NCBI GenBank assembly: GCA_050747525.1
Contig: JBOGOC010000110.1
Location: forward strand, 17,303 to 81,302
Source of the DNA: Candidatus Polarisedimenticolia bacterium
GTDB taxonomy: Bacteria; Acidobacteriota; Polarisedimenticolia; JACPZX01; DASXTC01
DNA: 64,000 bases
Reading direction: 5' to 3'
In this document: in pieces, positions 336-46,470 of the stretch
Layout: every line of letters begins with the position of its first letter
How positions within the stretch are numbered: the stretch's first letter is position 1
The notes under the pieces: model-generated
Database searches by the model: none
The model's input: the letters and a program-made list of their open reading frames with translations, nothing else
Told to the model about the DNA's origin: nothing
Translations under genes and position numbers: made by a program

Positions 336-396
336 ACGCCCGGATCGAGATAACGCGATCCCCCACCGCGTAGTCGTGGGGGCTGGAGGAGGCTCG

Positions 397-9193: not shown

Positions 9194-9241
9194 CTCTCCT
9201 GTTCGTCGGGCCTAGGTCCGGTGTTATCCACCTTCGAATGG
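9190..9241 (+). promoter_or_regulatory. Conserved promoter-like motif, copy 2, upstream of the giant subtilase gene
   Basis: cccctctcctgttcgtcgggcctaggtccggtgttatccaccttcgaatgga. The spacing between TGTTCG and TTATCC is 18 nt, as in the other copies. It lies ~50 nt upstream of ATG 9286. Confidence 0.5.
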
Positions 9242-9285
9242 ACCTCTCGAAAGCACAGGCGACGGCCTCAACCGAGGAGCACGAG

Positions 9286-18200: not shown

Positions 18201-18441
18201 CGTGGATGTGTTCTCCGGCGGGACTTTCGACGGCGCCTGCGTGGCCAGCGCGGTGCCCAACGTGGCTCTGCCTGGTATGGTGACGTGGACGGATGCCACC
18301 GTTCCGCCTGTCGGCACGGCCTTCATGTACCAGGTGGGCCATTCGTCATTGGTCACTGTCGCGATTGCGCCTCTGGGTGTGGGCCAGGTCGGAGACTTCC
18401 GGGCCGGCCAACTGAAGAGGGCTGGAGTGACCTGTCCGTAA
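9286..18441 (+). CDS. Giant (~3050 aa) secreted S8 subtilisin-like serine protease with long extensions and TSP3-type calcium-binding repeats
   Basis: ATG 9286 follows GAGGAG. Signal/TM segment MHAFRAARVVKRLFWSGIAFSIVISITSWTSPAPG. Subtilase His motif HGTIVTAAAAGN and Ser motif GTSISAGRVAGAALL. TSP3 repeats CDNCPSTPNHKQLDTDGDGVGDSCE, DNCPTVPNPAQ, DHDGDGVGDRCDSDDFDGDG around 15360-15800. The ORF track starts the open frame at 9073, but that region overlaps the tmRNA-like gene, and the RBS and signal peptide support 9286. Confidence 0.8.
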   Translation: MHAFRAARVVKRLFWSGIAFSIVISITSWTSPAPGRDGSERRPLPTAGADTEHPDDALTAEVRFLEKGRRQLYPRPEPTWWPVSNAGGLKPYGHVPASDLDSPYTLILPNGKGSIDTRKRSYRHDLPAVLRGGSGKGHRPGRGLYYLVQFRPEAAAGKVSLSLHEDLRRLGAEPIEYVPHNGWLVRMAGEQEAAGLGKAGIFQFVSPFEPADKIHPDTGRKPLLNPERASSDLFEVIVRVMPAEDAEEVAATVRRAGGEVLRLDRDPRGNTLISARLRNSRLLELLADPGVMGLWESPEYVQLDLAPAAQMEVGRILDPRDFGDFILPFRQAGIDGGGTYIGPPVDFTMPGVPGAPIPFSSALGFYAGPPQFLGVADNGLTLDSPAFAHDNSNPCLAPGACVDGGGFAGLANVGVFHRRIEAYTEGDDFDPGASGDFLTCDAIGSGGRTHGTIVTAAAAGNPSGGLFGLGRFYDDVDAIGQHRVFFNDSRETDLPLDGQARGARVIFQDIAVTPPASPPACAANFQSDVDAGALPSDRLEDMAYRCDLFGPGCPGPLDPRGAKVTLFAFGNPVNFDDAAGNGNGVYGVGADTVDAFLFLNRRITHVQAVGNDGADPDDGSDIDPFVPALAPGSIQINSLATGKNVVTVGANHTDSIDPLGMGFGADPSEFIANFSSKGPATFASGRGAPLVVAPGFDVGQGLKGRRSDDYFISAATVLSRDNGNDMLGADEVENFVVEGAAGTSISAGRVAGAALLIRDYFAKGFYPTGAATAADIVPDISGMLVKAVLVNSTDFSSRGPLIESCEGRGPLMCPSEQGYGKVELANTLPLQNYRAERRPPSPTNVAPVTNVPQALLVADEYFDGGMRGTGPGGSTTGIAVVPVGGSVSFDFFRRHGNDQLRVSLAWYDAVGELLANDLNLEVTSGDYQTSLGGAGICGPVGGGIPAVCGDCTIAANYPGEALYFDPTGVNPYVQIFRGNQFRAFDGQFSYRVECDAAGAPEPPAVAPQNAFDDTNPTESVMLHYLGDPLAFGQTRSGGDHGPYRVRVSFPATPASTPVPDAPVIHPGPDGDLDAVPVADDTMLAFSDGTPYIGAGPDGIADTAPVADDIALIPLGSFGQPFALVAAGPVLANTPTDPRGTARVSSVVAFNKDVFDCSDELTLRVADWSLPVPPASSIGANTLVNVLDSTGAIVDTEAGFTFTVDPGSSALRVSRAMHYNSSSLDLGTPVVGGPVPFNSLLEVMEGWTLQAVYDDPTPVVMVGGRPIPLDAVTTARVRCRPFLGPTLLTLEDENARRTVISGGCDEGRVRQAPGDLFLDADESVVYQVGFANHGHEALEDLRATLTCADPLPGFPNPCAFVTIVRANAVLGTIPPGSEGVAAWTLKIAPTVVTLLGGPPADLAVDLTVTFSAPELAGVAFTFREGLQADMEVLRYNTDFPGGGTRAADYDRNGVIATLPPGSGARNRELMEFEPLVFAGSPNAGLAGLIPWRFDSNAGGFTAFRTGTSKPGFPQNALAWFYGTAGGCGWQTQNNGIVGLSTTLPKGVWHAGHGPVGTFRAAGACPAYTNPSDPLTRPFTEFIHDVLRSPVLFKMNPGTDARGMPLDLRIEAIGWNENQHFGDSSTVASLAVDTNIMDDGPVVLGDPYAENIPFVTSGPRLNAAHSQRTFGPLRDSDNSLPGKGGANGDEVGVAEPLVQGSEFNFIERRLLAYPAVDADANIRGFQSRTAVDGVGHSTPWGPVRNRDSNASGSEIVDFGGSFEDFYGASGDAFQFEFGWTLFEGGVGARGWTIDDPYIEWSEQHAVDQAPGSVNDCSEIPFRPGSDPASSQCAVVSFERLTLHECTEGVIVTVIDGTTASTVGTMGCPIGQVPVLLRSAGEPAGEIFCLAPRGGGNFNNTVSLSGLSDQPGFLFVNPADGQNASIEAIYRDPECDRDHDGVLGENDPVDVDGDGVPNFGADGVFGDSDPAALLAGGEGASDDDNCFDPVKLIDIFNPPGVPQMDLAPPVGITPADCVPSPTNGQCDFDDDGRGDLCDNCPSTPNHKQLDTDGDGVGDSCEVSDIDVDGVVNDIDNCPTVPNPAQAPGAGGRGAVCDAAADMDSDGVAEVTDNCPNEGAFPISTTYNPAQEDHDGDGVGDRCDSDDFDGDGAMNSADSCPTVFNVVDPALRTQADSDRDGRGDDRGGIDATAGPANYCDPDQDDDDGSGAPDDLVGFSASVRCNFNQFGINNAAGPQAAVGSLVLEGFTITDDGAADGGVPDGIADPGELVSVTLTLRNASLDRGTGLPRPLTNLMVGIKPLTPSISSVPLSEVSIGLLAGMGTVTTPPGGLSFIVNPALPGPGQSVPGHPAQAEFLVTAQAKEMTGIAPEQKFRIFVDLDVAHAGLAPAACPGIPAMAGPGVLCENFDTDLNGSLALDPWTRLPIGLDAADPQNRALQDPADDIIGYAQGTGSGSAFNTNARLCSSDKAAGAPATCQAVAEENDWHLHSPVNGPGAGYAPGAPPAIGAPDGGKAHSGVQSLHFGRHLDPASTLSDTTRYRQAAAYVLDMDPPLVPGPASRLEFWHIIQMPDDDSIGAEAGTSLGGGQVQVSVKEGPAGLFGKWRTLTPLCNGYNSLVQGTYAVCQFDPGDDGSLDMDETMCNGQPVWSDIGDVQATASVCGGDSDGNGQDDCGEIASTVCPALPGGVPDTVSLGSTGTGVWARSQVDLSPFAGREVRLRWIATTAGGWDFGRDRSALEPETGPASQYYEADDGWWIDNIVLTGLLVAPSAFAPDPAAGPFALTGPQSGEPDFLVGSAAGLAPQDPANCGVVTLNLANSIPYGSNRLLSSEGPGRHIQLDAFQSAAGDDPNTQAVEGRCERGLLEFQFSQLGPTGSVVEVIKEFSPARVANVRPAADTMYRLAGRCSSDLACAASQDVLVKLYTGDGSDLNPAPGEFGLEVTGGATATLQWPSRPQPAGISGYDVFRYASGTNTGVDVFSGGTFDGACVASAVPNVALPGMVTWTDATVPPVGTAFMYQVGHSSLVTVAIAPLGVGQVGDFRAGQLKRAGVTCP

Positions 18442-18543
18442 CGGCACGCATCTCCTCAATGCAGGACGCGCTTGAAGAGCGCGGCTTAAGGAGTTCGGTC
18501 TATTGGACGAGGAGCACACGAGATTCTGGCGATAGGTGATGCG

Positions 18544-18685
18544 CTGTGACGGTTCTGTGACGGAACGCCCGCCTAAGCCACCCAACTCCGGCCTAAACCG
18601 CCTCACCTAAGTCGTTGCTCTACTTGACCGGCTCGTCTGGCGTGGTGTCCGGCTTCGCGTTCGATTCCCACACGCTTCCGCCAGG
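18544..18685 (+). repeat. Dispersed ~160-bp repeat element, copy A
   Basis: ctgtgacggttctgtgacggaacgcc...cccaactccggcctaaac...cctaagtcgttgctctacttgaccggctcgtctggcgtggtgtccgg...cgttcgattcccacacgcttccgccagg shares 85-90% identity with the copies at 21340, 28537 and 46386. Confidence 0.75.
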
Positions 18686-18869
18686 ATCGCCCGTCGTAGG
18701 AACAGGGTGTTTCGTATGCTGGTCATGCGGGGAATCTGGGCGGGCCGGACGTCAACGGCGGCGCGCCCGAGCGAAGATCGTGTGACCGATCGGCAGCCGG
18801 CCCAGTAGCGTGTCGTCAGCGCCGGAAGCGGACCCTGTTCACGGAGCCGGGACCCCCTGGCGGCCGCCG

Positions 18870-21191: not shown

Positions 21192-21339
21192 GTCGCCGAG
21201 ACTCCTCGGTCAGTGATTCTACGACACGGGTCGCATGGCGCCGGCCGCGGTCTCTTGACGTGCCCGTCAGGAAGGAGGCTCCACCATGTCCACCATGGGC
21301 AGGCGACCAACGAGGTGAACTTCATGATGCAGAAGTTCA

Positions 21340-21500
21340 CTGTGCCGGTTCTGTGACGGAACTCCAGCCGAACCCACCCAACTCCAGCCTAAACGACCGG
21401 GCCTAAGTCGTTGCTCTACTTGATCGGCTCGTCTGGCAGGATGTCCGGGATCGCCTTCGATTCCCACACGCTTCCGCCAGGGCTCCCTGCAGCATCAGGC
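21340..21500 (+). repeat. Dispersed ~160-bp repeat element, copy B
   Basis: ctgtgccggttctgtgacggaactccagccgaacccacccaactccagcctaaac...ttcgattcccacacgcttccgccagggctccctgcagcatcaggc. It is preceded by the hairpin gtgaacttcatgatgcagaagttcac. It is in direct orientation with copies A and C. Confidence 0.75.
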
Positions 21501-21614
21501 GTCTTCTGGCAGTCAGTTCCCCTGCTGTGGGCGGCCATCCTCCCACCGACGCCGTGATAGCGTCGACTTGGCGATTGTTTCCAGAGGAGGATAGCCGATG
21601 CTCTAAAGGGCGGA

Positions 21615-24041
21615 CTACCGCAACGACCAAACTTCGATGGCGCCCCCGGAGACGTCTATCATGGGGCCGGTCGTGGACCCTGGGGGTGGCACAGAAATAT
21701 CGATTCTGCCAATCGTTGCAGTGCTTCCATCGGAGTAGCGCACTCTGAACTCGTAGCTCACTTCCTTCAGCAGCTCGTGCCCGCGCCACGTCGCTCGTGG
21801 ATAGCTCTCCGCGCTGGCTGTGAGCACGATCGTGGCACCTTCATTGCTCGCGAGATCCCGGAGCTCGCGCAGGCGTGCTTCGGCTGTGCGGCTTTGGAAA
21901 ACCTGGTTCACTTCACGGGGGGCATACATGATTCCTTCACGAGCCTCGTCACCGAAACCAGGGCCCCAGAGGTGTGCTCTCTCGTAGTCGGGAAGTCCGA
22001 TTTCCCGGGAGGTTGGCAGATCCACGTTGAAGTTCGGTACTCGGGGATCGCGCCGATCCCCTAGAGAAGGCCCCAGTTCTCCTTCGATTCTGAATTTGAT
22101 GGTCCCATCCGGATCCCGATGGGCCCAGATCTCCTTGATGAGACCTGTTCCGGCAGTATCCCCTGATAGGGCCACATTCGTGCTGCGTAGCCTGGGCCCT
22201 CTCCCGGAGGCTGCTGGATCGGGCGAGGCCTGTTCTCGACCGGAGGCAGCCCGCTGGCGCCGTGCCTCGGATCTGCCCCGTGGTGGTCGCTGCGTGGGCT
22301 CGCGCTCGCTCCGCCTTCCGGAGACCATCGTGTCGGCAGCTCTCGCTGACGGACCGTGCGTCGACGGATCCACCGCACCCGCGATCGGGCGCGCTTGCCG
22401 CGTCTCGGCTGCGCCTGACGCCGGGCGGTCGGTGTTCCCCTGGCTTGCTGGACGACGTGGTCGTCGCTCCCGGGAGCCGGCAGTCATCGGGGATTCCTGC
22501 CTCTCCGCCGTGCGCGACCCGGTGGAGGGCAAAGCCTCGGAAGGTGCCGCTGGCCGAGCCCCCAGCCTCGGCTCGTCCCCGACGCCAGCGGGGCGCTGGA
22601 GTCGCGCCTCCCCGGTGCCGGGAATGGGCCGATCGACCGCCCGCTCTGCCGTACGCAGGCCCTGAAGGCTCGGTCGCGGGGTTCGGCCCCTCGCTGCTCG
22701 CAGAAGAACGCGCTGAGTGAATTCAGTGCGCAGGAATCTGCGGGCGACGGGTCCCAGCATCGCGGGGAGAAGTATCGATGCCGCCAGAAGACCGACATCG
22801 GCGGTGATGTCCACCATCTCGCCGCTCGCGGGCCCCTCCGCGACACGAAGACCCTCATCGACAAGCGCGGTGCGATTCATGAGATTCCGTTGCGTCTCCG
22901 CGGACGCTGCGAATCCATACTCGACTCCGGTCTGAATCCCCAGCATCACGGCCCCGACCACTCCCGCCACGAGAGGCGATGCGAGCCCTCCTGAGACAGC
23001 CGTGACGACGAGCCCGGCTGCAAGCACCAGCACCCTGACATTCTCCAGAGCCCCCCATCTCTCTGTGAGTTCCGGGAAAAGCTCCTCAGCGAGCTCCTTC
23101 AGCGGTTCGGACTCCGCGAAGGCCGCTCCTACGTCATTTCGGAACGTAACGTCCGCCAACCTCAGCACGGGGCGCAGGTTCTCCCAGTTCTCCTGGCCTC
23201 TCAGAATCTCGTCGAGTCTCCCCCGGAAAGCAGCCACGCCTGCTCGCAGGAACACCACGATTTCATTGACGAGGCTACGGAGGTACCGGTTCCTCAGCTC
23301 GGTCGGGGCTCTCAAGACATCGTAGAGCGCCTGAGGGGTTGCGAATCTTCGGACCAGGACCAGGATTGGATGGCCCCCGAGCTCCTCGTCGAGGAGCAGG
23401 GAACGCAACTCGAAGTCATTGTTGGTCTTGACGAGGGCCACGCGTGCCAGGATGAAGTCCTGGTCCCGAGACTCTCGTGGCGACTCTCCCCAGCGGTACC
23501 AGATGAGATGGCGGACAGGGGGTTGAGCCGGCCCATAGGCCTGGGTCCCTGCATCTCGTTCGGGCGGACCGCCAGGCGGCAGCGCTGGGGTGGGTGGCAA
23601 CGCCGGCGGAGGCAACGCCGATTCCGGCACTGCGTACGGCGCGCTCGAGGTGAACACCAGCCAGCTCGCAAGGCAGCGCGCAAGGCTCCCCAGCTCCTGT
23701 TCGGCGGGCGGAGTGGCCTCACCCTCTCTTCGCCGTCCGCGGTAGCGCCAGTTGATGTGGCCCCAGAGCGAGGTCATCAAGCGAAGCTGAAACTCGCCCA
23801 TCTCGACAGCCGACGCTTGAAGCCATGCCTTGAATAGGGCGCGGTCCTCTTCGTGCCGAGGGCTTAGAAACGCCAGTCCCCCTGGCCCCGCGTCAGGGTA
23901 TGTCCGCCGAAACTGATCGAAGGCCCTCGGGATCGTACCGTGAGGATCCGAGGACACACCGCCTCGCGCCCTCCACAAGAGACGATAGGAACGGTCAGCG
24001 TGGTGTAGCCTCCGCAGGACTTCTCTGGGCTCGTCTGACAT
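21615..24041 (-). CDS. Hypothetical 808-aa protein: N-terminal domain, two TM helices, a disordered R/P-rich linker and a C-terminal ~190-aa toxin-like domain
   Basis: Long ORF with coding-like composition. TM segments VLVLAAGLVVTAVSGGLASPLVAGVVGAVMLGI and LLAASILLPAMLG. Low-complexity linker RQESPMTAGSRERRPRRPASQGNTDRP... C-terminal block LPDYERAHLWGPGFGDEAREGIMYAPREVNQVF...IVLTASAESYPRATWRGHELLKEVSYEFRV. No confident family assignment. Confidence 0.55.
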   Translation of the reverse strand: MSDEPREVLRRLHHADRSYRLLWRARGGVSSDPHGTIPRAFDQFRRTYPDAGPGGLAFLSPRHEEDRALFKAWLQASAVEMGEFQLRLMTSLWGHINWRYRGRRREGEATPPAEQELGSLARCLASWLVFTSSAPYAVPESALPPPALPPTPALPPGGPPERDAGTQAYGPAQPPVRHLIWYRWGESPRESRDQDFILARVALVKTNNDFELRSLLLDEELGGHPILVLVRRFATPQALYDVLRAPTELRNRYLRSLVNEIVVFLRAGVAAFRGRLDEILRGQENWENLRPVLRLADVTFRNDVGAAFAESEPLKELAEELFPELTERWGALENVRVLVLAAGLVVTAVSGGLASPLVAGVVGAVMLGIQTGVEYGFAASAETQRNLMNRTALVDEGLRVAEGPASGEMVDITADVGLLAASILLPAMLGPVARRFLRTEFTQRVLLRAARGRTPRPSLQGLRTAERAVDRPIPGTGEARLQRPAGVGDEPRLGARPAAPSEALPSTGSRTAERQESPMTAGSRERRPRRPASQGNTDRPASGAAETRQARPIAGAVDPSTHGPSARAADTMVSGRRSEREPTQRPPRGRSEARRQRAASGREQASPDPAASGRGPRLRSTNVALSGDTAGTGLIKEIWAHRDPDGTIKFRIEGELGPSLGDRRDPRVPNFNVDLPTSREIGLPDYERAHLWGPGFGDEAREGIMYAPREVNQVFQSRTAEARLRELRDLASNEGATIVLTASAESYPRATWRGHELLKEVSYEFRVRYSDGSTATIGRIDISVPPPGSTTGPMIDVSGGAIEVWSLR

Positions 24042-24103
24042 GGGCGGCTCCCGGCAGCGCCGGCCTCCTCTCGACTTCCTCCATGTGATCCAGCGCTCGA
24101 GGG

Positions 24104-26974
24104 TTACGCATCGTCGTCCGTTGGGTCCACTGCGGGAAAGTCCCCCAGAGCGCCCTGCGTAACAACCGTGACCCGTTCGACATCGGGATCGCCCAGCTTG
24201 TCGATGTCGATCCGTCGCTGACGACGCCTGTTCTCGATCTGCTTGGCTTCCAGATCCGCCGCCGCCGAGAGGACATCGAGATAGCGGTGCAATGACTTGA
24301 AAGGCTCAAGGGAGCTTGCCGGGTCGACCGCCCTGGAGAGCAGGACGTTGTTCGTATCGAGGAGAAACCGCCTCGTGTGTTGCTTGCGCAGCACGTAGTC
24401 GGGTAGAAGGTCCCGCACGAGCTTGCGGGTCGACGCGTCGAGATCGCTCCACTGGCCAGGCCTCGGGTCCAGCACCCCGAACGCTGTCGCAACCTCAGGG
24501 AAGAACTCTTCGAACTCACTCAACATCTCCGCGCTGAAGAACTCCGACTCCTGCTCGGGCGAGAGTGGTTCCTGCCTGAACCGAATCGCTCTCAGCTCCG
24601 GATCTTCGAGGAGTGGATCGGCGAATACGTTCACGGCGAACCGATCGCCGTGCTGGAGCGCCTCACCCGCAGCCGGGACGAGCCTGACGCGCAATCCATG
24701 GAACTCGAGCTCGCCGCCGGACGAGCTCATATCCGTCGCGGCGACAACCGTATAGACGCTCCGACCGTCGACGTCATCGGCCTCCAGCAGACTGATTTCG
24801 CATCGTGACGGAGAGGGAGGCGTGCTGACGAAGTCGATCTGATACTCGCCGGTCCCGAGCCGGTTCGGGGAGATATCCACCTCGACGGTGACGCGCCCCG
24901 GGGAACCGCCCAGGAGTTCGCCGCTGGCCCTGTGCCTGAGGTACGGAAGGCGCAGATAGCCCACCGCATCGTCGATATCCGGGAACCGACCGTCCTGCTT
25001 CAGATAAAAGATGGCGTAGTTGCCTGCAAACCCGATCGGGCCGGCGGGGTTGATCAGATTCGCGAGGCTCGCCGTGGGCCGTAGCTCCGGGCGCCACACC
25101 CCCTCGAGAACCCCCTCCGCCGTGTAGGATCCGACGAGCGACCACTCCGTCGGGACAGTCACCGAGGCGTACCGAAGGAGCCGTTGCTGCGGGTCTTCCG
25201 ATGCCCAGATCGCTCTGCAGTAGTGCAGGATGTTCTCGAAGATGTGCCACTGCAGCCGACGAACGCTGCGAGAATACTGCTCCCTCTCGGCCCTGCGGAC
25301 ACGCTCGCGCTCGACCTCTCGCTCGTAGCTCGCCTGCGGATTAGAGTAGACGTCTGGTGCCGTTCCTTCGAGACTGTCGAACTGCGGCAACCCACGGCTG
25401 ACGATGCCACCCATGAGATTGGCAATAGCCGGGTCCTTGTCTGCGACCTCCTCCGCTTCGGAACGGGGCTCCTGAGCGCGAATCACCTCCAAGTCCTTGC
25501 GGTATGACTCGTCGAGTAATGCGCGAGCGAGGATTGTATCATGCCCTCTGATCCATCGGCCGGTTATCTCGCTTGGGAGTGGGATTCTCTCGGCGACGAA
25601 CACACAAGCATTCGCCTCGGCTAGCTCCGTGTGAATCTCGTACTGTCTCTGGAGGCGGCTGTAGATGTAAGTCACCGCGACCTCGTCGTTCGGATTACTG
25701 ATCTCCGACTCGCGGGAGAGCTCCGTCGTCTCCTCGACCTCCGTTGAAACGACGATCTTGGTTTCTTGCCGCATCCTCGAGGCGGTCTTCGCCATGGTCT
25801 CGTTGAGGGTCGATTTGGTATCCCGGGAGGATGATGCGGACTCGCCTCCCATCCCGGCGGATAGACTCGCGGAGCCGAAACCGAAGGAGGCCGAGGCCGA
25901 GGCCTCCGCGTTCCACTTGAAGGTATCGGACGCCTCGCTCACTATCTCCTGAGAATCCTTCGTCGCTGTCGACGACTCCGTCGCGGTCTCGATGGCCGTC
26001 ACCGCTTCCATCTGGCGGGTTGCCTTCGTGCGATGTATCGCCTTGATACTGACCTTCTCGCTCTGTTTCGGACCGAGTGGCAGGGTTCTGAGGATCTCTC
26101 CTTCCTGGTAGCCGAGCGGCACCCAAGTCTGTCGATAGACGAGTTGCAGGCCCAGGTTGACCGTATCGTGGGCGTATGGGACGAAGGGGTAGGAGCCGGA
26201 AAGCAGGTTGCTCTCGGGTGCAGGGACGGGCGCTTCAGACGCCCTGCGATTGGCCTCTTCCTGCAAGGCGTTCCTGATTTCCGGTCTGTGTTCCAGCCAC
26301 AAGCCGCCATCGCTGAGATCCCGAATCACGTATTCGTGAATGACACGCGCCGGATCCAGTCCTGCTGCGGTGATGTCTGCGACGTATTCCGGAATCCCTC
26401 GAAGCCTTGGGATCTCCTCGAGAAGTATGCGCCTCACATGCGAGTCGGCGAACGACCAGTACCATTCGGGTTCATGCAATCCACGCCAGTGCGCGTAAAG
26501 CCCGCCTTCACCCTCGACGAGCCCCGATCGAATTCCGACCACCACCATCTCAGCCACCGAGTCGGCGATTCCGCTTCCCTCCGAGACGGTTCCCTCGTAG
26601 ACAAGGAAGATCCGGCTGGGCAGGTCGTCGAAGACCTGACTCACCACGAGACTGAATCCAGCGGCCGTCTCCGAGAGCGTGGCGATTCCTCCACTCGACG
26701 GCAAACCGCCGAAGCCGAGCGGATATCCTCGCTCGTCGGGCCCAATCCCAGCAAAGGTCTCGCCGGCCCTCCCAACATCCCTCACTCGTTCGGAGATCCC
26801 GAGGGCATAGCCGAGGGTAGGCGGTGCCATGAAGAGGTACTGCGAGAAGTCGTGGATCGCGGTTTCTTTGATCTCGGAAGGCGGGCTCTTCAGGACGTTC
26901 TCGAGGGGCGCCGCCTCGGCGAGCAGGCGGGAGAGCCGCTCGCTTACCTGCTCCAAATCCAGTGACACCGACAT
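24104..26974 (-). CDS. Hypothetical 956-aa protein with no recognisable motif, co-oriented between the Toprim gene and the 808-aa gene
   Basis: Long ORF. 30-nt gap to the downstream gene start at 24041 and 40-nt gap from the upstream gene. Internal S/A/G-rich segment ASASASFGFGSASLSAGMGGESASSS. No Walker A/B or catalytic motifs seen. Confidence 0.55.
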   Translation of the reverse strand: MSVSLDLEQVSERLSRLLAEAAPLENVLKSPPSEIKETAIHDFSQYLFMAPPTLGYALGISERVRDVGRAGETFAGIGPDERGYPLGFGGLPSSGGIATLSETAAGFSLVVSQVFDDLPSRIFLVYEGTVSEGSGIADSVAEMVVVGIRSGLVEGEGGLYAHWRGLHEPEWYWSFADSHVRRILLEEIPRLRGIPEYVADITAAGLDPARVIHEYVIRDLSDGGLWLEHRPEIRNALQEEANRRASEAPVPAPESNLLSGSYPFVPYAHDTVNLGLQLVYRQTWVPLGYQEGEILRTLPLGPKQSEKVSIKAIHRTKATRQMEAVTAIETATESSTATKDSQEIVSEASDTFKWNAEASASASFGFGSASLSAGMGGESASSSRDTKSTLNETMAKTASRMRQETKIVVSTEVEETTELSRESEISNPNDEVAVTYIYSRLQRQYEIHTELAEANACVFVAERIPLPSEITGRWIRGHDTILARALLDESYRKDLEVIRAQEPRSEAEEVADKDPAIANLMGGIVSRGLPQFDSLEGTAPDVYSNPQASYEREVERERVRRAEREQYSRSVRRLQWHIFENILHYCRAIWASEDPQQRLLRYASVTVPTEWSLVGSYTAEGVLEGVWRPELRPTASLANLINPAGPIGFAGNYAIFYLKQDGRFPDIDDAVGYLRLPYLRHRASGELLGGSPGRVTVEVDISPNRLGTGEYQIDFVSTPPSPSRCEISLLEADDVDGRSVYTVVAATDMSSSGGELEFHGLRVRLVPAAGEALQHGDRFAVNVFADPLLEDPELRAIRFRQEPLSPEQESEFFSAEMLSEFEEFFPEVATAFGVLDPRPGQWSDLDASTRKLVRDLLPDYVLRKQHTRRFLLDTNNVLLSRAVDPASSLEPFKSLHRYLDVLSAAADLEAKQIENRRRQRRIDIDKLGDPDVERVTVVTQGALGDFPAVDPTDDDA

Positions 26975-27013
26975 GATGTCGTCCTCCTCGACTGCGGCTC
27001 AAGGCGATTCTTG

Positions 27014-28090
27014 CTAGGGCATCAAGGGATCTCCGATCGACTCATAGAGCCTTCCAGCGACATCCATCAGCCGGCGTCGCTGCTCTAACGACAGGGGCTC
27101 ATCGCGCAGAGCGCGAAGGAGGTGGGGCTTGAGTCGTTCTGCGAGCCGGCGCACGCCGGCGAGGCGTATCGCCGTGGCAGGTCGTGCCAGCCGGCCGCCA
27201 TGGGAACGCTCGACAGGTGTCCGGAGGTGTGCCAGCCGGACCGCTGTGCGGGGAAGCCTCAGGCGCGGAAACGGAGTGGCGTACGACGGTCGCCATTCGG
27301 CAGCCTGGCTCAACATTCCTTTCGCATTCGAAGGAGACATGATTGTGGCCATCGGCATGGGCGATCTCCCGACGATTCGCGTCGAGGTCGCACCCATCCG
27401 GGCGAGCTGCGCGGCAAGCTGCTGCATGTGTGCCCACCCGTTGGCGTCGGGAAGGGGCCAGAGGACGATCGAAGTTGAATCGAGAACCGGCTCCAGCGCT
27501 GTCCTCGGCGGGAGAAGGAAGGGCCCGCAGAGCGTCCCCACGGCCTGGAGACCCTGGGCTCGCAGAGCATCGGCAGCCCGCACCCCCTCCGTGATGACTA
27601 CCGGACCCCCCTGGCGCGACAAATCCTCGTATCCGCACAGTGGCAGCAGCAGGGATGACAGATCGTAGTGTCTGATGCCAGTCTCGTCCTCGAAGAACAC
27701 CTCGTGACGTATTCTTCCGCTCGGATCGCGGCGGATTGTGCGGACGAGTCGACCGCGCCGGCCGTCGAGGAGCCGCAGGGCGATCGAGGTGTTCTGATCA
27801 GGTGAGAGCTCCTCGCCCGACCGGCTCATCGGCGATCGCCACGGATCCAGCCTGATGGCCATCCATTCCGGCGAAGAGACGGACACGAACGGCATCCGAT
27901 GAACGAGTGTGGGCAGCAAAAACCCGACCAGAGCCGGATCGCCGAGGAGTCTTCGGGATACTCTCGATGCGCGACCGGCCTCCACAAGCAATCGGCGGGT
28001 CTCCCGCGACACGGAGGCGATCCCGCTCGCGAAGTCGTGCTTGCCGGGAGCGGTCCTGGAACCATCCTTGGGCTTCGACTGTCGGGGCAT
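27014..28090 (-). CDS. Toprim-domain protein (DnaG-primase/OLD-nuclease-like Toprim fold), 358 aa
   Basis: PVVITEGVRAADALRAQGLQAVGT and IVLWPLPDANGWAH match the Toprim E...G and DxD(G) acidic motifs. It is the first gene of a three-gene minus-strand unit. Confidence 0.55.
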   Translation of the reverse strand: MPRQSKPKDGSRTAPGKHDFASGIASVSRETRRLLVEAGRASRVSRRLLGDPALVGFLLPTLVHRMPFVSVSSPEWMAIRLDPWRSPMSRSGEELSPDQNTSIALRLLDGRRGRLVRTIRRDPSGRIRHEVFFEDETGIRHYDLSSLLLPLCGYEDLSRQGGPVVITEGVRAADALRAQGLQAVGTLCGPFLLPPRTALEPVLDSTSIVLWPLPDANGWAHMQQLAAQLARMGATSTRIVGRSPMPMATIMSPSNAKGMLSQAAEWRPSYATPFPRLRLPRTAVRLAHLRTPVERSHGGRLARPATAIRLAGVRRLAERLKPHLLRALRDEPLSLEQRRRLMDVAGRLYESIGDPLMP

Positions 28091-28200
28091 CTGATCCCTC
28101 CGGCGCCTGGGAATTCAAACTGGTTCTTTTCAACGATTCTACATGCGAAAGGGCGCATTCCGTCAACCTCGGCCCCGATCGAGCGGCTGGCGACCAGGCA

Positions 28201-28536
28201 GTGCGGCTGGCCGTGGTCTCGCGTCTCGCGTGGATCCTCCGCAAGCGGAGGGCGTTCGTGGAGCAGGCTCGCCAGTCGCAACGAGAGACAGTCACGGGCG
28301 AGAGTCAATACTTCCAGGGGCGCCGTTACCTGCCCTACGTGATTGAAGTGGCCAAATCACCTTCCGTCCGTCTGGCCGGCCACAACACGATGGAACTGCG
28401 GGTTCGCCCGGGCAGCGACCGACAGGCCCGCGAGGCCGTCCTTCAGGGATGGTATCGACGTGGCCTGCGCGAGCAGGCAACGACGCTTCTTGCCAAGTGG
28501 GGGCCGAAGATCGGCGTGACTGTTTCTGAGGTGGGA
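28201..28536 (+). pseudogene. Truncated DUF45/YgjP-like (WLM-type metal-dependent hydrolase) gene fragment, interrupted by repeat copy C
   Basis: Translation ...RRYLPYVIEVAKSPSVRLAGHNTMELRVRPGSDRQAREAVLQGWYRRGLREQATTLLAKWGPKIGVTVSEV matches the YgjP family middle region (..WYRRqA....v..wa.rlGl....vrvr). The expected RWGSC/HExxH part is replaced by the repeat sequence beginning ctgtgccggttctgtga at 28537. The N-terminus overlaps the upstream minus-strand gene. Confidence 0.45.
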
Positions 28537-28697
28537 CTGTGCCGGTTCTGTGATGGAACACCAGCCGAACCCACCCCACTCCAGCCCAAATTTCCTCGCC
28601 TAAGTCGTTGCTCTATTTGACCGACTCGTCTGGCGTGGTGTCCGGAATCGCGTTCGATTCCCACACGCTTCCGCCAGGGCTCCCTGCAGCATCAGGC
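28537..28697 (+). repeat. Dispersed ~160-bp repeat element, copy C, followed by a second partial start motif (ctgtgccggttctg) at ~28722
   Basis: ctgtgccggttctgtgatggaacaccagccgaacccaccccactccagcccaaat...cctaagtcgttgctctatttgaccgactcgtctggcgtggtgtccggaatcgcgttcgattcccacacgcttccgccagggctccctgcagcatcaggc. Confidence 0.75.
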
Positions 28698-29057
28698 TTT
28701 CCCGAGTGCTCCACTCCCCCGCTGTGCCGGTTCTGAGGGCTTCGGAGCCTCACCGGGGAACCGTAAGACCCTTCGGCCTGACGAGGCAGCAGCCAGGTGC
28801 CTCTGCGTGCGCCTGCGGCACGCCCGCGGATCATAGGCTTCGCGACTTCACGCACGGCGCGTGAGGGGGGGGTCGTGAATTCGGTTCGGGCTGCGCACAG
28901 TTCGGAGTAGAATCGCCTACCGGCTATCGCCGAGCGGGCAAGGGGAGGATGTCCCGAGGCCCCCTGCGACGGCGTCCGACCCTCAACAGCATCCTCGGCC
29001 GCAACCGCAGGGACGGGCTGCGCTTCACCATCTGCCCGATGTGCAGAGGAGGCACCC

Positions 29058-32000
29058 GTGTCCCATCCCGCGCCAGGTCGTCCAGCAGCAGCCCGTTCAC
29101 TCGGACTCATCCTTCTCGCAATCGGTGCCCTCCTCGGCGGAAATGCGAGCGCCGGAGACCAGGCAGCCGGCTCCCGGCCCGAGTATTTCCTCAAGTTCGC
29201 CGGCTCGCTGCCTGAGTCCGACGGCAGTCTCTTTTCGGGAAGCCGCACGTTCGTCTTCGAGCTCTTCGGGCGCGAGCGCGGAGAGGCGCCGATCTGGTCC
29301 GAGCAGCAGGAGATCGAGGTCCGTGATGGGCGGTACTCGACCCTGCTGGGAGTCAGCGCGCCCCTCACGGCGCCTCCGGGAGACGGGTACGCGCTCGCGG
29401 TCCGTGTCGAGGGAGTGGTCGAGCCGCTCGAGGTGCACGAGATCTCGATCGCGGTGCCCGCCGGCAGGGACGGGGTCGCTCGAACCGCGGGCACCCCGAT
29501 CTACAGGCTCCTCCCCTCGACGACGGGCCGGCGCGGCCGAGGCCGGATGGCGGCGATGGCCACCGCAGCCGCGGTGTCCGAGCCGGCGGACCAGGCCATG
29601 GCCCAGGCCGGCGCTGCCGCCTCGGGGCCCAGACTCCTCTTCGTCGGTGTGGAAGTGGAGGAGACATCGGGCAACACGGACGGTTCTCTGGAGCCCGGCG
29701 AAACGGTCAACCTCAAGGTCAAGCTCTACAACGACGGCAATGAGCTGGCCTCGTCCATCTTCGGGACTCTCGACTATCTCGGGACGAATCCCGATGTGAC
29801 GATCCTCGACAAGACCGCTTCGTGGCCGAACCTGGCGGCACGCGGAGCCCCGGCGCTGACCGACTCCCCCCACTTCCAGGTCCAGCTCGCAGGCACTCTG
29901 GCCTGCGGGACGGTGCTGCCATTCCGCGTGGAGGTGACGACAGGAACGGGGGGGATCTTCGATCTCGACTTCTCGCTCAAGGCCGGCCAGAGACTCGACT
30001 ATGACATGCTCCACGACGCGATCCGCCGATTCAACGAGCAGGAGGCGAACCTCTGGGGGGCCGATCCGGGGGACAAGCTCGGCTCGAGCGTGGCGTGGGG
30101 GGACATCAACGGAGACGGGCGCGCGGATCTGATTTTGGGGGCCAGCGAAGGCGACTCTGTAGGAAACGCCCGCGGCTTCGCTGGGGAGGTCTACCTCATT
30201 TACGGGAGGTCCAGCCAGTGGACCGAAACGGATCTCCTCAGCCCGGGGACCGGCGTGGCGCGATTCTGGGGAGCGGATCCAACTGATGTCCTCGGGATCT
30301 CTGTCGCCAGCGGTGACCTGAACGGCGACGGCTTCGACGACCTCATTTTGGGAGCAGAACTCGCCGACGGTCAGGGAAACGCGCGCGCTAACGCTGGTGA
30401 GGTCTACCTCATCTACGGGAGGTCCAGCGAGTGGACCGACACGGATCTCCTCTCCCCGGCGCCCGGCGTGGCGCGATTCTGGGGGGCGGACTCCCTGGAT
30501 TTGCTGGGATCTTCGGTGGCCAGCGGTGACGTGAACGGCGACGGGTTCGACGACCTCATTTTGGGGGCCAAAGAAAGCGACTCTTCAGGAAACGCCCGCA
30601 ACGCCGCTGGGGAGGTCTACCTCATCTACGGGAGGTCCACCCAGTGGATCGACACGAATCTCCTCACCCCCCCGTCCGGCGTGGCGCGATTCTGGGGCGC
30701 GGAACCCTTTGACACGTTGGGCTCCAGTGTGGCCAGCGGAGACGTGAACGGCGACGGGTTCGACGACCTCATTCTGGGGGCGGTCTTCGGCGACTCCGTG
30801 GGGAACACGCGTTTCAACGCTGGGGAGGTCTATGTCATCTACGGGAGGTCCAGCCAGTGGACCGACACGGATCTCCTCACCCCTCCGTCCGGCGTGGCGC
30901 GATTCTGGGGGGTGGATGAAGCAGATCGCCTCGGGATCTCTGTCACCAGCGGTGACGTGGACGGCGACGGCTTCGACGACCTGATCCTGGGAGCGGACGA
31001 CGGCGACTCCGTGGGGAACACGCGCTTCCTCGCTGGGGAGGTCTACCTCATTTACGGGAGGTCCAGCCAATGGACCGACACGGATCTCCTCAGCCCGGCG
31101 ACGGGCGTGGCGCGATTCTGGGGGGCGGATAATGCCGATCACCTCGGGTTCTCTGTCACCAGCGGTGACGTGGACGGCGACGGCTTCGACGACCTGATCC
31201 TGGGAGCGTTTAACAGCTCATCCGCAGGGAGCACGCGCCTCAGTGCCGGAGCGGTTTACCTAATCTACGGGAGGTCCAGCCCGTGGACCGACACGGATCT
31301 GCTCACCCCGGCGCCCGACGTGTCGCGATTCTGGGGGGCGGATACATTCGATCACCTCGGGTTCTCTGTCGGCAGCGGGGATGTGGACGGCGACGGCTTC
31401 GACGACGTGATCCTGGGAGCGGTTTCCGGCGCTTCGGCGGGAAACGCGCGCCCCGATGCCGGAGAAGTGTACCTCTGGTACGGGAAGCCCGTGGACACGC
31501 ACTACGCCCGCTCCGACACCTACTCGTTCATCGACGCCAGCGTCGGGGCCGGTCTTCCTGCCCTTGCCTGCGATGACTGCTCCACGACAGTGCCGATAGG
31601 ATTCTCGTTTCCCTTCCATGGCGAGGAGTATTCGACCATCCACGTGTCGAGCAATGGCCTGATCTCCTTCGCGCCCATCAGCGACCTCGCCTCCGCGAAC
31701 CCGATCTGCATCCCGGCGCGCAATCCCTCGAATCTCCTGGTCGCCCCCTTCTGGGACGATCTGAACCCGGCCGCCGGAGGAGCAGGCAGCGGCGTCTTCA
31801 CCCTCCTCCAGGGGACCGCCCCGAACCGCCGGCTCACGATCGAATGGAAGGATGTCCCGCACTATCCGGCGACGGGCGGAGCGACGTTCGAGGTGACGCT
31901 CTTCGAGTCGTCGGGACAGATCCTCGTCCAGTACGGCGACACGATTTTCGGAAACAGCGCCTTCGACGGCGGCGCCGCTGCGGTCGCGGGGCTCGAGAAC

Positions 32001-36776: not shown

Positions 36777-37403
36777 ATGCTGGAAGACCCTACCGGCCGT
36801 GGGTCACGCGGACCGGTCGATTCGTCTATATCGCCGCTCGAATCGTCGGCAGAGCTGCTGCGCCGCGCCCGGGATGGCGACTCCCAGGCTCTCAACAGCC
36901 TTTGCGAACGGATCATCCCCCCGCTGAAACGATGGGCGAGGCATCGGCTCCCTTCGTGGGCGCGCGACCTGGTCGACACCGACGACCTGGTGCAGGAAGC
37001 GGTGCTGGGTACCATCCACCAGATCGAGAACTTCGAGCCCCATCACCAGGGGGCGATCCACGCCTACCTGCGCCAGGCGCTCCAGAGCCGGATGCTCAAC
37101 GAACTGCGGCGTGCCCGCCGTCATCCTCATTCCGACGCCATCGAAGGGGACGGTCAGTTGGATCCCTCCCCCTCACCGCTGGAGGCGGCGATCGGCCACG
37201 AGGCCCTGGCGCGATACGAGTCGGCCCTGCAGCGGCTCAGACCTGACGAGCGCGAGGCGATCGTCGCACGCGTCGAGATGGGGATGGGCTACGCCGAGCT
37301 GGCGCAGGCGATCGGCAAACCGACGCCGGATGCCGCCCGCGTGGCGGTCGGCAGAGCGCTTCTCCGGCTGGCCCAGGAGATGCGGTATGAGCGAACGCGA
37401 TGA
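36777..37403 (+). CDS. ECF-type RNA polymerase sigma factor (sigma-70 regions 2 and 4)
   Basis: 208 aa. Region 2 DLVQEAVLGTIHQIENFEP. Region 4 PDEREAIVARVEMGMGYAELAQAIGKPTPDAARVAVGRALLRL. The stop overlaps the downstream kinase gene start by 17 nt. Confidence 0.8.
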   Translation: MLEDPTGRGSRGPVDSSISPLESSAELLRRARDGDSQALNSLCERIIPPLKRWARHRLPSWARDLVDTDDLVQEAVLGTIHQIENFEPHHQGAIHAYLRQALQSRMLNELRRARRHPHSDAIEGDGQLDPSPSPLEAAIGHEALARYESALQRLRPDEREAIVARVEMGMGYAELAQAIGKPTPDAARVAVGRALLRLAQEMRYERTR

Positions 37404-44357: not shown

Positions 44358-44419
44358 GGTCGATGGGAATGCACGGCCACGATTCCAGTCTGGTGAAGGT
44401 CGACAACAGGAGGTCGCAC

Positions 44420-45331: not shown

Positions 45332-45383
45332 GACGGTCAAGGGGATGGCGAACGCGGATCATGGTCGAGCACAGGAGGAGGTC

Positions 45384-46277: not shown

Positions 46278-46385
46278 AAGGTCTGCGCCGACGTGCCGAA
46301 ACCATCGGTCGCCGGTAGGCCGGGGCGAGTCCCCACAGCGTCACGGGAGGTCCGATCGGGCCGGCCGGCAAGGACAATCGCCACA

Positions 46386-46470
46386 CTGTGCCTGTTCTGT
46401 GGCGGAACGCCCGCCGAACCCACCCAACTCAGGCCTAAACGTTCGCGCCCAAGCCGTTGCACTCTGATTC
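46386..46470 (+). repeat. Dispersed repeat element, copy D (5' portion only, more diverged)
   Basis: ctgtgcctgttctgtggcggaacgcccgccgaacccacccaactcaggcctaaacgttcgcgcccaagccgttgc. Confidence 0.6.

What the first reader, a model, noticed from the sequence alone, without database searches (positions are those of the whole stretch)
21340..28697. Three-gene islet (Toprim protein, 956-aa unknown, 808-aa two-TM protein with toxin-like C-terminus) bracketed by direct copies of a 160-bp repeat
A co-oriented, tightly spaced minus-strand unit runs 27014..28090, then 24104..26974, then 21615..24041. Its ends are marked by repeat copies B (21340..21500) and C (28537..28697) in the same orientation. The first gene encodes a Toprim fold, typical of primases, OLD/Gabija/PARIS-type defence nucleases and mobile elements. 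The two large downstream proteins match no family I can recognise, although the last carries two TM helices and a distinct C-terminal domain. Copy C has also truncated a housekeeping-type DUF45 gene. Taken together this looks like an inserted accessory module, possibly a phage-defence or toxin-delivery cassette, that has not been described. Function is entirely inferred.
Basis: partly seen in the sequence, partly recalled or inferred. Interest (0 to 1): 0.7.

Follow-up and report, generated by a model that had tools for sequence, protein, structure and literature searches.

The report
Toxin operon with unannotated pore-like partner
This is a horizontally acquired three-gene operon that pairs a swappable-warhead toxin with a large, widespread, unannotated protein that may form membrane pores, which points to a toxin-delivery or cell-suicide mechanism I could not find described.

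Summary
Three co-oriented minus-strand genes sit at the stated coordinates, 39 and 62 nt apart, between two direct copies of a 162-nt repeat. Copy C cuts a YgjP/DUF45 gene.

The repeat is a dispersed intergenic element with four copies in the window. Copies A, B and C are about equally alike (87-90%). It is therefore weak evidence for mobility.

Gene 3 (808 aa) is a polymorphic toxin: an N-domain, two or three TM helices, a ~230-aa disordered linker and Pfam Ntox4 (E=1.8e-20). Gene 2 (956 aa) matches no Pfam, NCBIfam, PADLOC, PHROG or PDB entry, yet it founds a family of 3,654 clusters at 50% identity. That family occurs across many bacterial phyla and in some archaeal MAGs. Family members are usually followed directly by a large gene, some of which end in Ntox4, WHH, colicin-DNase, deaminase or HNH-like domains.

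The family has no signal peptides. It does have a gap-free, conserved amphipathic Gly/Ser/Ala beta-hairpin between long strands, and its weak fold matches are almost all aerolysin-type pore formers. Gene 1 is a DnaG-type Toprim protein found only in the closest subclade. In this copy the first Asp of its DxD motif is lost.

My best reading is a toxin cassette with a dedicated pore-forming partner. Abortive-infection defence is the close rival.

The parts
27014..28090 (-). Gene 1, 358 aa. It is a DnaG-type Toprim-like protein with the Toprim core at residues ~160-240 (27371-27613). This copy reads WPLPD where most homologues read WPDND.
   Evidence: ORF. Weak HMM hits. Family alignment with invariant E168 and D215. 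The only PDB profile hit is Aquifex DnaG, E=0.79.
24104..26974 (-). Gene 2, 956 aa. It founds a large unannotated family with no signal peptide and no TM helix. The AlphaFold model has mean pLDDT 73.7.
   Evidence: No hit in Pfam, NCBIfam, PADLOC, PHROGs or PDB sequences. 68 homologues. 3,654 clusters. Model.
25550..26227 (-). Long-strand beta-sheet module of gene 2 (residues 250-475). Four strands of 20-30 residues surround a low-confidence insert.
25841..25921 (-). Conserved amphipathic Gly/Ser/Ala-rich beta-hairpin (residues 352-378, FKWNAEASASASFGFGSASLSAGMGGE). This is the candidate membrane-inserting stem.
   Evidence: Strict hydrophobic/polar alternation and no gaps in 44 sequences. The first arm ranks 1 of 946 windows for beta hydrophobic moment.
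21615..24041 (-). Gene 3, 808 aa. It is a membrane-anchored polymorphic toxin. NCBI calls a 608-aa version, but homology to relatives starts at residue ~28, so the long form is right.
22752..23051 (-). Hydrophobic TM segments of gene 3 (residues 331-362 and 412-430).
   Evidence: Kyte-Doolittle scan. Similar central TM segments occur in many downstream partners in other loci.
22002..22694 (-). Arg/Pro/Ser/Ala/Gly-rich low-complexity linker of ~230 residues (about residues 450-680) between the TM region and the toxin domain.
   Evidence: Translation.
21690..21989 (-). Ntox4 (PF15541) toxin domain, residues 685-784. His, Glu, Asn, Gln and Glu are conserved across homologues.
   Evidence: E=1.8e-20. 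Alignment. No solved relative.
28091..28180 (-). Leader of the operon. It contains an unusually AT-rich stretch and a GGAGGG ribosome-binding site a few bases ahead of the gene 1 ATG. It is a candidate promoter region.
   Evidence: Read directly from the sequence. The sigma-70 scan found no consensus promoter.
28180..28533 (+). YgjP/DUF45-like remnant. It lacks a start and lacks the C-terminal metallopeptidase part. Its GC3 of 0.74 resembles the cassette.
21339..21500 (+). Repeat copy B. It lies 115 nt downstream of the gene 3 stop.
28536..28697 (+). Repeat copy C. It abuts the cut end of the YgjP remnant. A 14-nt restart follows at 28722-28735.
18543..18704 (+). Repeat copy A, in the convergent gap between the 3122-aa gene and the HEAT/PQQ gene.
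46384..46463 (+). Repeat copy D, which holds the 5' 80-nt module only.

Best explanation
The block is a horizontally acquired conflict operon. Its conserved core is a gene pair. The first member is a soluble ~950-aa protein of an unannotated family. It carries an aerolysin-like long-strand beta-sheet with a conserved amphipathic Gly/Ser/Ala hairpin. The second member, immediately downstream, is a membrane-anchored polymorphic toxin. Here that toxin has an N-domain, two or three TM helices, a ~230-residue disordered linker and an Ntox4 warhead.

Proposed mechanism: the 956-aa protein oligomerises and inserts its hairpins as a beta-barrel into the membrane that holds the toxin protein. That pore is the route by which the tethered C-terminal toxin is released or delivered against competitors or predators.

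The Toprim protein is an accessory found only in the closest subclade. In this copy its metal-binding DxD motif has lost the first Asp, so a regulatory or nucleic-acid-binding role is more likely than catalysis.

Shown: gene linkage across phyla, the identity of the toxin domain, swapping of the C-terminal domain among relatives, the lack of signal peptides, and the hairpin pattern. Inferred: pore formation, export through the pore, the target of the toxin, and the Toprim role.
For: Operon: gaps of 39 and 62 nt.

Conservation of the trio: the same three-gene order is found in a Rhodobacteraceae MAG, Celeribacter, Marinobacterium, Stappia, an Elusimicrobiota MAG, Pseudomonadales, Nocardioides and metagenome contigs.

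Family size: the 956-aa family has 3,654 clusters at 50% identity with E<=1e-3 and 819 with E<=1e-30. It was found in 79 genome loci from many bacterial phyla and some archaeal MAGs.

Downstream partner: 76 of 86 loci have a closely following same-strand downstream ORF, most of them over 250 aa. Pfam on 65 of these finds Ntox4 in 6, WHH in 2, Colicin-DNase in 2, PT-TG in 1 and SNAD4/APOBEC-type deaminase in 1.

C-terminal swapping: L008, L037 and L167 have an N-domain homologous to gene 3 but end in an HNH-like DH..N..EN domain instead of Ntox4.

Membrane anchoring: many partners have 1-3 central TM segments.

Hairpin: residues 352-378 alternate hydrophobic and polar residues, with an F-G-F-G tip and no gaps in 44 sequences. 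The first arm has the highest beta hydrophobic moment of 946 windows.

Prior annotation: Ntox4 was defined as a polymorphic-toxin domain with no known immunity protein (PMC3482391).
Against: - None of 176 family members has a signal peptide. The strongly basic stretch after the last TM helix of gene 3 suggests the linker and toxin face the cytoplasm. Export is therefore not shown.
- In a diderm such as this Acidobacterium, an outer membrane would still have to be crossed.
- No immunity gene follows gene 3 here. No recurrent immunity family follows the partners elsewhere.
- The Toprim protein is not explained by this model.
- Only about 12 of 65 downstream partners carry a recognisable toxin domain.
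Confidence: 0.4

Rival explanations
1. Abortive-infection or programmed-cell-death defence. The Toprim protein or another trigger senses infection. The cytoplasmic 956-aa protein then perforates the cell's own membrane from inside, as bacterial gasdermins do. The membrane-tethered toxin domain is unleashed on the host cell, which dies before phage are released.
For: - All three proteins lack signal peptides, as do 0 of 176 family members.
- The family occurs in monoderms, diderms and archaeal MAGs, so it does not depend on envelope type.
- There is no immunity gene downstream here or in L005, and no recurrent immunity family elsewhere.
- The basic stretch after the last TM helix suggests a cytoplasmic toxin domain.
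- Toprim is common in defence nucleases (established knowledge). The weak PADLOC hit is to a DRT-associated DnaG-like protein.
- Neighbours elsewhere include restriction-modification genes, integrases, NB-ARC/TPR, CHAT and caspase-like proteins.
- The window has a TPR-CHAT gene 4.4 kb away, and a YgjP remnant lies next to the cassette.
Against: - Genes 2 and 3 match no PADLOC model.
- No relative was found in 2.9 million viral contigs, although this does not bear directly on defence.
- The warhead repertoire (Ntox4, PT-TG, WHH, Colicin-DNase, SNAD4) and the long pre-toxin linker are typical of exported polymorphic toxins.
- The Toprim partner is missing from most of the family.
- A constitutively made toxin with no inhibitor would need an unexplained safety catch.
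Confidence: 0.3
2. A binary toxin aimed at eukaryotic grazers or hosts. Genes 2 and 3 are the B (pore) and A (enzyme) components. They are released by lysis or vesicles rather than by a secretion system, as with the BinAB/Tpp-type toxins.
For: - The best weak fold matches are BinB, Tpp49, Tpp80, Cry78, Cry35 and lysenin.
- Those toxins also lack signal peptides (established knowledge).
- Ntox4 has no immunity partner and was linked to PVC-type injection systems.
- No immunity gene is present here.
Against: - Gene 3 and many partners carry TM helices, so they are membrane proteins rather than soluble A subunits.
- Other partners carry nucleases and deaminases typical of inter-bacterial toxins.
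- The fold matches are not significant.
Confidence: 0.1
3. The block is a repeat-bounded mobile element or a remnant of one. The Toprim protein is its primase-like replication or mobilisation protein, and the repeats are its ends or att sites.
For: - Direct repeats lie within 115 nt of one end of the low-GC3 block and exactly at the other end.
- Copy C interrupts a gene.
- Toprim hits are to primases.
- Integrase and transposase genes lie near the cassette in Nocardioides.
Against: - B-C identity (89.5%) is no higher than A-B or A-C (87-88%).
- Copies A and B flank a widely conserved gene.
- There is no integrase or transposase inside the block.
- The repeat is absent from all other cassette loci.
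- The Toprim protein has no primase zinc-binding or polymerase part detected, and its DxD is degenerate.
- The cassette is absent from viral contigs.
Confidence: 0.07
4. The three genes are unrelated neighbours or ordinary housekeeping genes.
For: No known family covers genes 1 and 2, so nothing positively excludes an unknown cellular role.
Against: - The same order and tight spacing recur in at least five phyla.
- The distribution is patchy, and the cassette is absent beside the same neighbour gene in 80 relatives.
- A toxin domain is present.
Confidence: 0.03

Closest known systems
Polymorphic toxin systems (Zhang, de Souza, Anantharaman, Iyer & Aravind 2012, PMC3482391), Ntox4 class
   Same: A long N-terminal region carries a variable C-terminal toxin domain after a low-complexity pre-toxin linker. 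Ntox4 itself is present. Relatives swap the warhead for HNH-like, WHH, colicin-DNase or deaminase domains.
   Different: No known trafficking module was detected by Pfam: no RHS, PAAR, LXG, filamentous haemagglutinin or DUF4157/PVC-metallopeptidase. There is no signal peptide and no identifiable immunity gene. The toxin is instead coupled to an unannotated ~950-aa partner.
Aerolysin-family beta pore-forming toxins and binary toxins (lysenin, BinAB, Tpp49/Tpp80, Cry35, Cry78, parasporin-2)
   Same: Both have a sheet of very long strands around an amphipathic Gly/Ser-rich insertion hairpin. Both use a two-component gene arrangement. BinAB/Tpp-type toxins also lack a signal peptide.
Bacterial gasdermin cell-suicide systems
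   Same: Both involve a cytoplasmic pore former without a signal peptide, encoded in accessory regions and patchily distributed in bacteria and archaea.
   Different: The fold and size are unrelated. There is no adjacent activating protease. The partner here is a toxin-bearing membrane protein.
Toprim defence nucleases (OLD, Gabija GajA, PARIS AriB)
   Same: A Toprim domain occurs in an accessory conflict-type locus.
   Different: There is no ATPase domain or ATPase partner. The similarity is to DnaG-type Toprim. There are no PADLOC hits to these systems. The first Asp of DxD is lost in this copy.
PVC/eCIS-delivered Ntox4 toxins
   Same: The toxin domain is the same.
   Different: There is no PVC-metallopeptidase N-domain and no contractile-injection locus beside the cassette. 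Only an orphan VgrG-like gene is present, 31 kb away.

Membership tests
Pfam Ntox4 (PF15541) | Score above the curated gathering threshold over most of the model | tested here: met
   73.7 bits against 25, profile positions 3-109 of 109, residues 685-784.
Polymorphic toxin system | Variable C-terminal toxin domains on a homologous N-terminal region | tested here: met
   Gene 3's N-domain is homologous to L008 and L037, and partly to L167. All three end in an HNH-like domain instead of Ntox4. Other partners carry different toxin domains.
Polymorphic toxin system | Cognate immunity gene immediately downstream | tested here: not met
   The 424 nt after gene 3 hold only the repeat and a non-conserved 43-codon frame. 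No ORF is shared among Ntox4 loci. No recurrent family occurs downstream elsewhere. The status for other loci is inconclusive, because many have small tightly linked ORFs.
Polymorphic toxin system | Recognised trafficking domain or secretion signal | tested here: not met
   Pfam finds only Ntox4. There is no N-terminal hydrophobic signal.
Toprim domain | Conserved Glu and a DxD metal-binding motif in a Toprim-like profile match | tested here: inconclusive
   The Glu (E168) and the second Asp (D215) are invariant. The first Asp is replaced (WPLPD) in the window copy and three relatives, while eight others have DND. HMM hits range from 1.6e-5 to 2e-3 and fall far below curated cut-offs. The PDB DnaG hit is E=0.79.
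OLD / Gabija / PARIS defence systems | Toprim nuclease joined to or partnered with an ABC-type ATPase | tested here: not met
   No ATPase domain was found in any of the three proteins. No PADLOC hit to these systems was found.
Aerolysin-type beta pore-forming toxin | Amphipathic insertion hairpin flanked by long strands | tested here: met
Aerolysin-type beta pore-forming toxin | Significant fold or sequence similarity to family members | tested here: inconclusive
Aerolysin-type beta pore-forming toxin | Oligomeric beta-barrel pore formation in membranes | not testable with these tools
   This needs biochemistry or a multimer structure.
Genomic island or mobile element bounded by att-type direct repeats | Flanking repeats more alike than other copies, a recombinase inside, and an empty site in relatives | tested here: not met
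   B-C is 89.5% against A-B 87% and A-C 88%. No recombinase lies inside. Relatives of the neighbour gene are not syntenic, so no empty site could be examined.
YgjP/DUF45 metallopeptidase | Full-length domain that includes the HExxH motif | tested here: not met
   Only profile positions 19-136 of 207 are present. The frame diverges at 28533.

The most novel reading that the evidence does not exclude
The ~950-aa family is a new, self-contained toxin translocator. A single cytoplasmic protein builds a beta-barrel pore in the producer's own membrane to export, or fire, a tethered polymorphic toxin. It works independently of the known secretion systems and of envelope type, and it is spread by horizontal transfer across many bacterial phyla and possibly into Asgard and thaumarchaeal lineages.
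Probability: 0.2. Interest if true: 0.85.

Novelty: new variant of a known kind. Interest (0 to 1): 0.66.

Why it matters
Polymorphic toxins are normally classified by the secretion machine that carries them. Here a toxin of that kind is coupled to none of the known machines. It is coupled instead to a large protein family with no entry in Pfam, NCBIfam, PADLOC, PHROGs or the PDB, which nevertheless has thousands of sequence clusters in many bacterial phyla and some archaeal MAGs.

If the partner is a pore former, it would define either a new route of toxin delivery or a new pore-based suicide module. Either way, it gives a concrete and cheap set of experiments for a sizeable piece of unannotated sequence space. 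It would also give the first functional context for Ntox4, for which I found no experimental study in the papers searched.

Tried and rejected
- The repeat as an RNA gene or tRNA fragment. Rfam gave no hit at gathering thresholds, and only a chance H19 match at E=0.82 on copy B. ARAGORN found no tRNA or tmRNA. The TTCGATTCC...CCA look-alike is part of a 7-bp palindromic hairpin, not a T-arm. Differences between copies fall at all codon positions of the small overlapping frame, so it is unlikely to be coding.
- The repeat as a wider family. nhmmer finds no copy in any of the other fetched loci (about 1.5 Mb), including 80 loci from related soil bacteria.
- Synteny or empty-site test. The 80 metagenome relatives of the HEAT/PQQ neighbour (71-83% aa identity) share no flanking genes with the window. 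The test was therefore uninformative beyond showing that the cassette is not linked to that gene.
- Phage origin. No relative of gene 2 was found in IMG/VR.
- Sequence-profile searches of the PDB with the gene 2, Toprim and Ntox4 alignments gave nothing significant.
- Word-index homologue searches with gene 1 and with the N-domain of gene 3 found almost nothing beyond self.
- Pfam on eight long (1,179-1,300 aa) members of the gene 2 family found no fused domain that could hint at function.
- Conserved immunity gene. None was found.
- Promoter and terminator consensus scans were at background level.
- Literature searches for Ntox4, PF15541, and combinations of aerolysin, polymorphic toxin, Toprim and anti-phage terms found no description of this cassette.


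Full report
OBSERVATION

They are separated by 39 and 62 nt, so an operon is the natural reading.

The bracketing repeat is real. Copy B (21339-21500) and copy C (28536-28697) are direct and 89.5% identical over 162 nt. Sub-patterns of 23-26 nt recur 3-4 times where shuffles give none.

The window holds two further copies in the same orientation. Copy A is at 18543-18704. Copy D, at 46384-46463, has only the first 80 nt. A 14-nt restart of the repeat lies at 28722-28735.

The plus-strand ORF 27907-28620 is a YgjP/DUF45 fragment (PF01863, E=3.8e-12, profile positions 19-136 of 207). Its frame leaves the family consensus at 28533, three bases before copy C begins. This is before the part of the Pfam profile (positions 137-207) that, from my knowledge of the family, carries the RWGSC and HExxH motifs; that part is not matched. 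It also has no usable start codon, so it is a remnant cut at both ends.

THE REPEAT

The repeat has no Rfam match and is not a tRNA or tmRNA. It has an 80-nt 5' module, and a 3' module that forms a ~50-nt imperfect palindrome around GGAATCG-CGTT-CGATTCC.

All four copies are intergenic. A-B, A-C and B-C identities are 87%, 88% and 89.5%, so B and C are not a recent duplicate pair. Copies A and B flank the HEAT/PQQ gene, which has hundreds of 71-83% identical relatives in soil metagenomes. None of those 80 fetched loci, and none of the other cassette loci, contains the repeat.

I read the repeat as a lineage-specific dispersed intergenic element. It may have served as a recombination site, but it does not show that the block is mobile.

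IS THE BLOCK ACCESSORY?

Yes. P0001 is 100% identical to gene 2 and is annotated as a hypothetical protein of a Candidatus Polarisedimenticolia MAG.

The nearest relatives of gene 2 are a JGI metagenome contig (60% aa identity), a Logan contig (55%) and Marinobacterium (53%). They are not Acidobacteriota.

GC3 is 0.70, 0.76 and 0.74 for the three genes and 0.74 for the YgjP remnant. The surrounding large genes have 0.81-0.88. The low-GC3 stretch therefore runs from the gene 3 stop to the start of copy C.

None of 80 loci carrying relatives of the neighbouring HEAT/PQQ gene has the cassette. Those loci are not syntenic with the window, so no precise empty site could be examined.

GENE 3

The 808-aa protein ends in Pfam Ntox4 (E=1.8e-20, 73.7 bits against a cut-off of 25). 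NCBI names a 608-aa version 'polymorphic toxin type 4 domain-containing protein'. Homology to relatives starts near residue 28, so the 808-aa form is correct.

The architecture has four parts. There is a ~330-aa N-domain. Hydrophobic segments follow at residues 331-362 and 412-430. Then comes a ~230-aa Arg/Pro/Ser/Ala/Gly-rich linker, and finally Ntox4.

Zhang et al. 2012 list Ntox4 as an alpha+beta polymorphic-toxin domain from Nitrosococcus and Frankia. They link it to PVC-type trafficking and a PVC-metallopeptidase, and list no immunity protein (PMC3482391). Neither of those N-terminal features is present here.

The domain keeps conserved His, Glu, Asn, Gln and Glu residues within an AHxWGxGFGxE...YAPxEVNxxxQNxGIE motif. 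It has no solved relative by sequence.

No immunity-like ORF follows the gene.

GENE 2

The 956-aa protein has no hit in Pfam (even at E<=10, apart from a meaningless Aerolysin 4.8), NCBIfam, PADLOC, PHROGs or PDB sequences.

It is nevertheless the founder of a large family. A profile of 44 members finds 3,654 clusters at 50% identity with E<=1e-3 and 819 with E<=1e-30. A genome scan returned 79 loci. They include Pseudomonadota, Actinomycetota, Bacillota, Bacteroidota, Chloroflexota, Planctomycetota, Myxococcota, Elusimicrobiota and Cyanobacteria. They also include MAGs labelled Heimdallarchaeota, Promethearchaeota and Nitrososphaera. MAG binning errors cannot be excluded for the archaeal cases.

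None of 176 near-full-length members has a signal-peptide-like N-terminus, and only 3 have any TM-like helix.

The AlphaFold model (mean pLDDT 73.7) has a helical N-domain. It then has four strands of 20-30 residues (272-300, 305-324, 407-426, 434-461) around a low-confidence insert. Helical and beta-rich C-terminal domains follow.

Within the insert, residues 352-378 (FKWNAEASASASFGFGSASLSAGMGGE) alternate hydrophobic and polar residues in two ~12-residue arms around an F-G-F-G tip. The pattern holds without a single gap in all 44 aligned sequences. The first arm has the highest beta hydrophobic moment of 946 windows.

The Foldseek weak list for the full model also holds Tpp80, Cry78, Cry35 and parasporin-2. 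Each of these scores is individually insignificant. Their agreement with the hairpin pattern is the reason I propose a pore-forming function. Membership of the aerolysin family is not established.

THE CONSERVED UNIT

In 76 of 86 loci the gene 2 homologue is followed closely, usually within tens of bases, by a same-strand ORF, in most cases one of more than 250 aa.

Pfam on 65 of these downstream proteins finds Ntox4 in 6, WHH nuclease in 2, Colicin-DNase in 2, the pre-toxin PT-TG domain in 1 and an SNAD4/APOBEC-type deaminase in 1. It also finds GrpB in 2 and LigB in 1.

Relatives whose N-domain is homologous to that of gene 3 (L008, L037, and partly L167) end in an HNH-like DH...N...EN domain instead of Ntox4. 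In the closest cassette (L168) the third gene shows no detectable similarity to gene 3.

Many partners have one to three central hydrophobic segments.

The core is therefore a pair: a family member followed by a membrane-anchored protein with a swappable warhead.

No recurrent immunity family follows the partners. Many loci do have small tightly linked ORFs that could be unrecognised immunity genes.

GENE 1

The Toprim-like gene sits directly upstream of gene 2 only in the closest subclade. That subclade comprises the window, L001, L003/L004, L005, L008, L009, L010, L013, L019, L020, L002/L016, L167 and L168.

The alignment shows an invariant Glu in xxEG and an invariant second Asp. Eight members read WPDND. 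The window copy, Marinobacterium, Nocardioides and P0070 read WPLPD or WPLAD, which loses the first metal-binding Asp.

The similarity is to DnaG-type Toprim. The evidence is NCBIfam NF005477 at 1.6e-5, a PHROG primase at 2e-3, PADLOC RT-DnaG-like at 2e-3, and a profile hit to Aquifex DnaG at E=0.79 with the motifs aligned.

Another subclade has a different ~300-360-aa upstream partner with no Pfam match. Elsewhere the upstream genes are heterogeneous. Gene 1 is thus an accessory of one branch, not part of the core.

MECHANISM

My preferred reading (confidence about 0.4) is a toxin cassette with a dedicated pore-forming partner. The 956-aa protein would insert its hairpins as a beta-barrel in the membrane that anchors the toxin protein. 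The long disordered linker would let the warhead pass or be released.

The close rival (about 0.3) is an abortive-infection or cell-suicide system in which the same pore and toxin act on the producer itself.

Several observations favour the rival:
- The family has no secretion signals at all.
- It is independent of envelope type.
- The window has no immunity gene.
- The basic stretch after the last TM helix suggests a cytoplasmic warhead.
- Toprim domains are common in defence systems.
- Conflict-type neighbours recur. CHAT lies 4.4 kb away here and next to the Nocardioides cassette. A caspase-like gene lies in L001. Restriction-modification and integrase genes lie elsewhere.

Several observations favour the delivery reading:
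- The warhead repertoire (Ntox4, PT-TG, WHH, Colicin-DNase, SNAD4) is typical of exported polymorphic toxins.
- The pre-toxin linker is typical of exported polymorphic toxins.
- PADLOC gives no hit to genes 2 or 3.

Three less likely readings remain:
- A lysis-released binary toxin against eukaryotes.
- A repeat-bounded mobile element with a primase-like gene.
- Unrelated neighbouring genes.

None of the mechanistic steps is shown. They are inferences from sequence patterns, weak fold similarity and gene linkage.

COMPARISON WITH KNOWN SYSTEMS AND NOVELTY

Gene 3 is a member of the Ntox4 family and has the architecture of a polymorphic toxin. It lacks the trafficking domains, secretion signals and immunity gene that define the described systems.

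Gene 2 works, at best, like an aerolysin-type pore former. Family membership is unproven.

Gene 1 has a Toprim core but is not an OLD, Gabija or PARIS component.

I found no description of this cassette or of the gene 2 family in the profile libraries or in the papers searched. That is not proof that none exists.

I rate the finding as a new variant of a known kind: a polymorphic-toxin system with a new, widespread partner. There is a reasonable chance that the partner defines a new delivery or suicide mechanism.

Noticed in passing
window 54741-57158 (+), 57522-59582 (+): There is an orphan VgrG-like spike gene (Phage_GPD E=3e-80 plus Phage_base_V). It is followed by a GAF-GAF sigma-54 activator. 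No other contractile-injection genes were seen nearby. This may be relevant because Ntox4 was first linked to PVC-type injection systems.
   Followed up: partly
window 33138-36602 (-), 37111-39075 (+): A 1154-aa TPR-CHAT (caspase-like) protein and a Ser/Thr kinase with DUF4384 lie 4.4 kb from the cassette. CHAT or caspase-like genes also lie near the cassette in Nocardioides (L002) and in L001.
   Followed up: partly
window 18543-18704, 21339-21500, 28536-28697, 46384-46463, 28722-28735: A lineage-specific 162-nt intergenic repeat has all copies in one orientation within 28 kb. It has an 80-nt 5' module and a 3' palindromic hairpin module. It is absent from all other loci fetched, including those from related soil bacteria. 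Its function is unknown.
   Followed up: partly
window 1-337 vs 38796-39075 and 9186-9243: Sequence upstream of three giant secreted-protein genes (966-6650, 9073-18441, 39208-43476) is repeated. There are 280 nt at 72% identity and 58 nt at 81%. This may be a shared leader, a regulatory region or a paralogous gene end (families D7 and D15).
   Followed up: no
window 29058-33125 (+), 9073-18441 (+), 966-6650 (+), 39208-43476 (+): The cassette sits among very large repeat proteins. One is a 1355-aa protein with seven 213-nt FG-GAP units. Others are 3122-aa and 1894-aa proteins with Asp-rich calcium-binding-type repeats. Another is a 1422-aa subtilase-Kelch-cohesin protein.
   Followed up: partly
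L028, L030, L031, L032, L033, L038, L053 (gene immediately upstream of the gene 2 homologue): A second recurrent upstream partner of ~300-360 aa replaces the Toprim gene in another branch of the family. It has conserved motifs such as RLGS and TDxNGxFxL and no Pfam match.
   Followed up: partly
L022, L025, L027, L034, L036: Gene 2 family members lie on contigs binned as Heimdallarchaeota, Promethearchaeota and Nitrososphaera. If the binning is right, the module crosses the bacteria-archaea boundary.
   Followed up: no
window 21615-24041 (-): The public annotation starts the toxin gene 200 codons too late (608 aa). Homology to relatives begins at residue ~28 of the 808-aa ORF.
   Followed up: yes
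window 45096-45331 vs 46042-46277: A 236-nt direct repeat (79% identity) lies at the 3' ends of two neighbouring ORFs, 44354-45331 and 45126-46277, which overlap by about 200 nt. The ORFs therefore share a C-terminal segment. Neither has a Pfam match.
   Followed up: no
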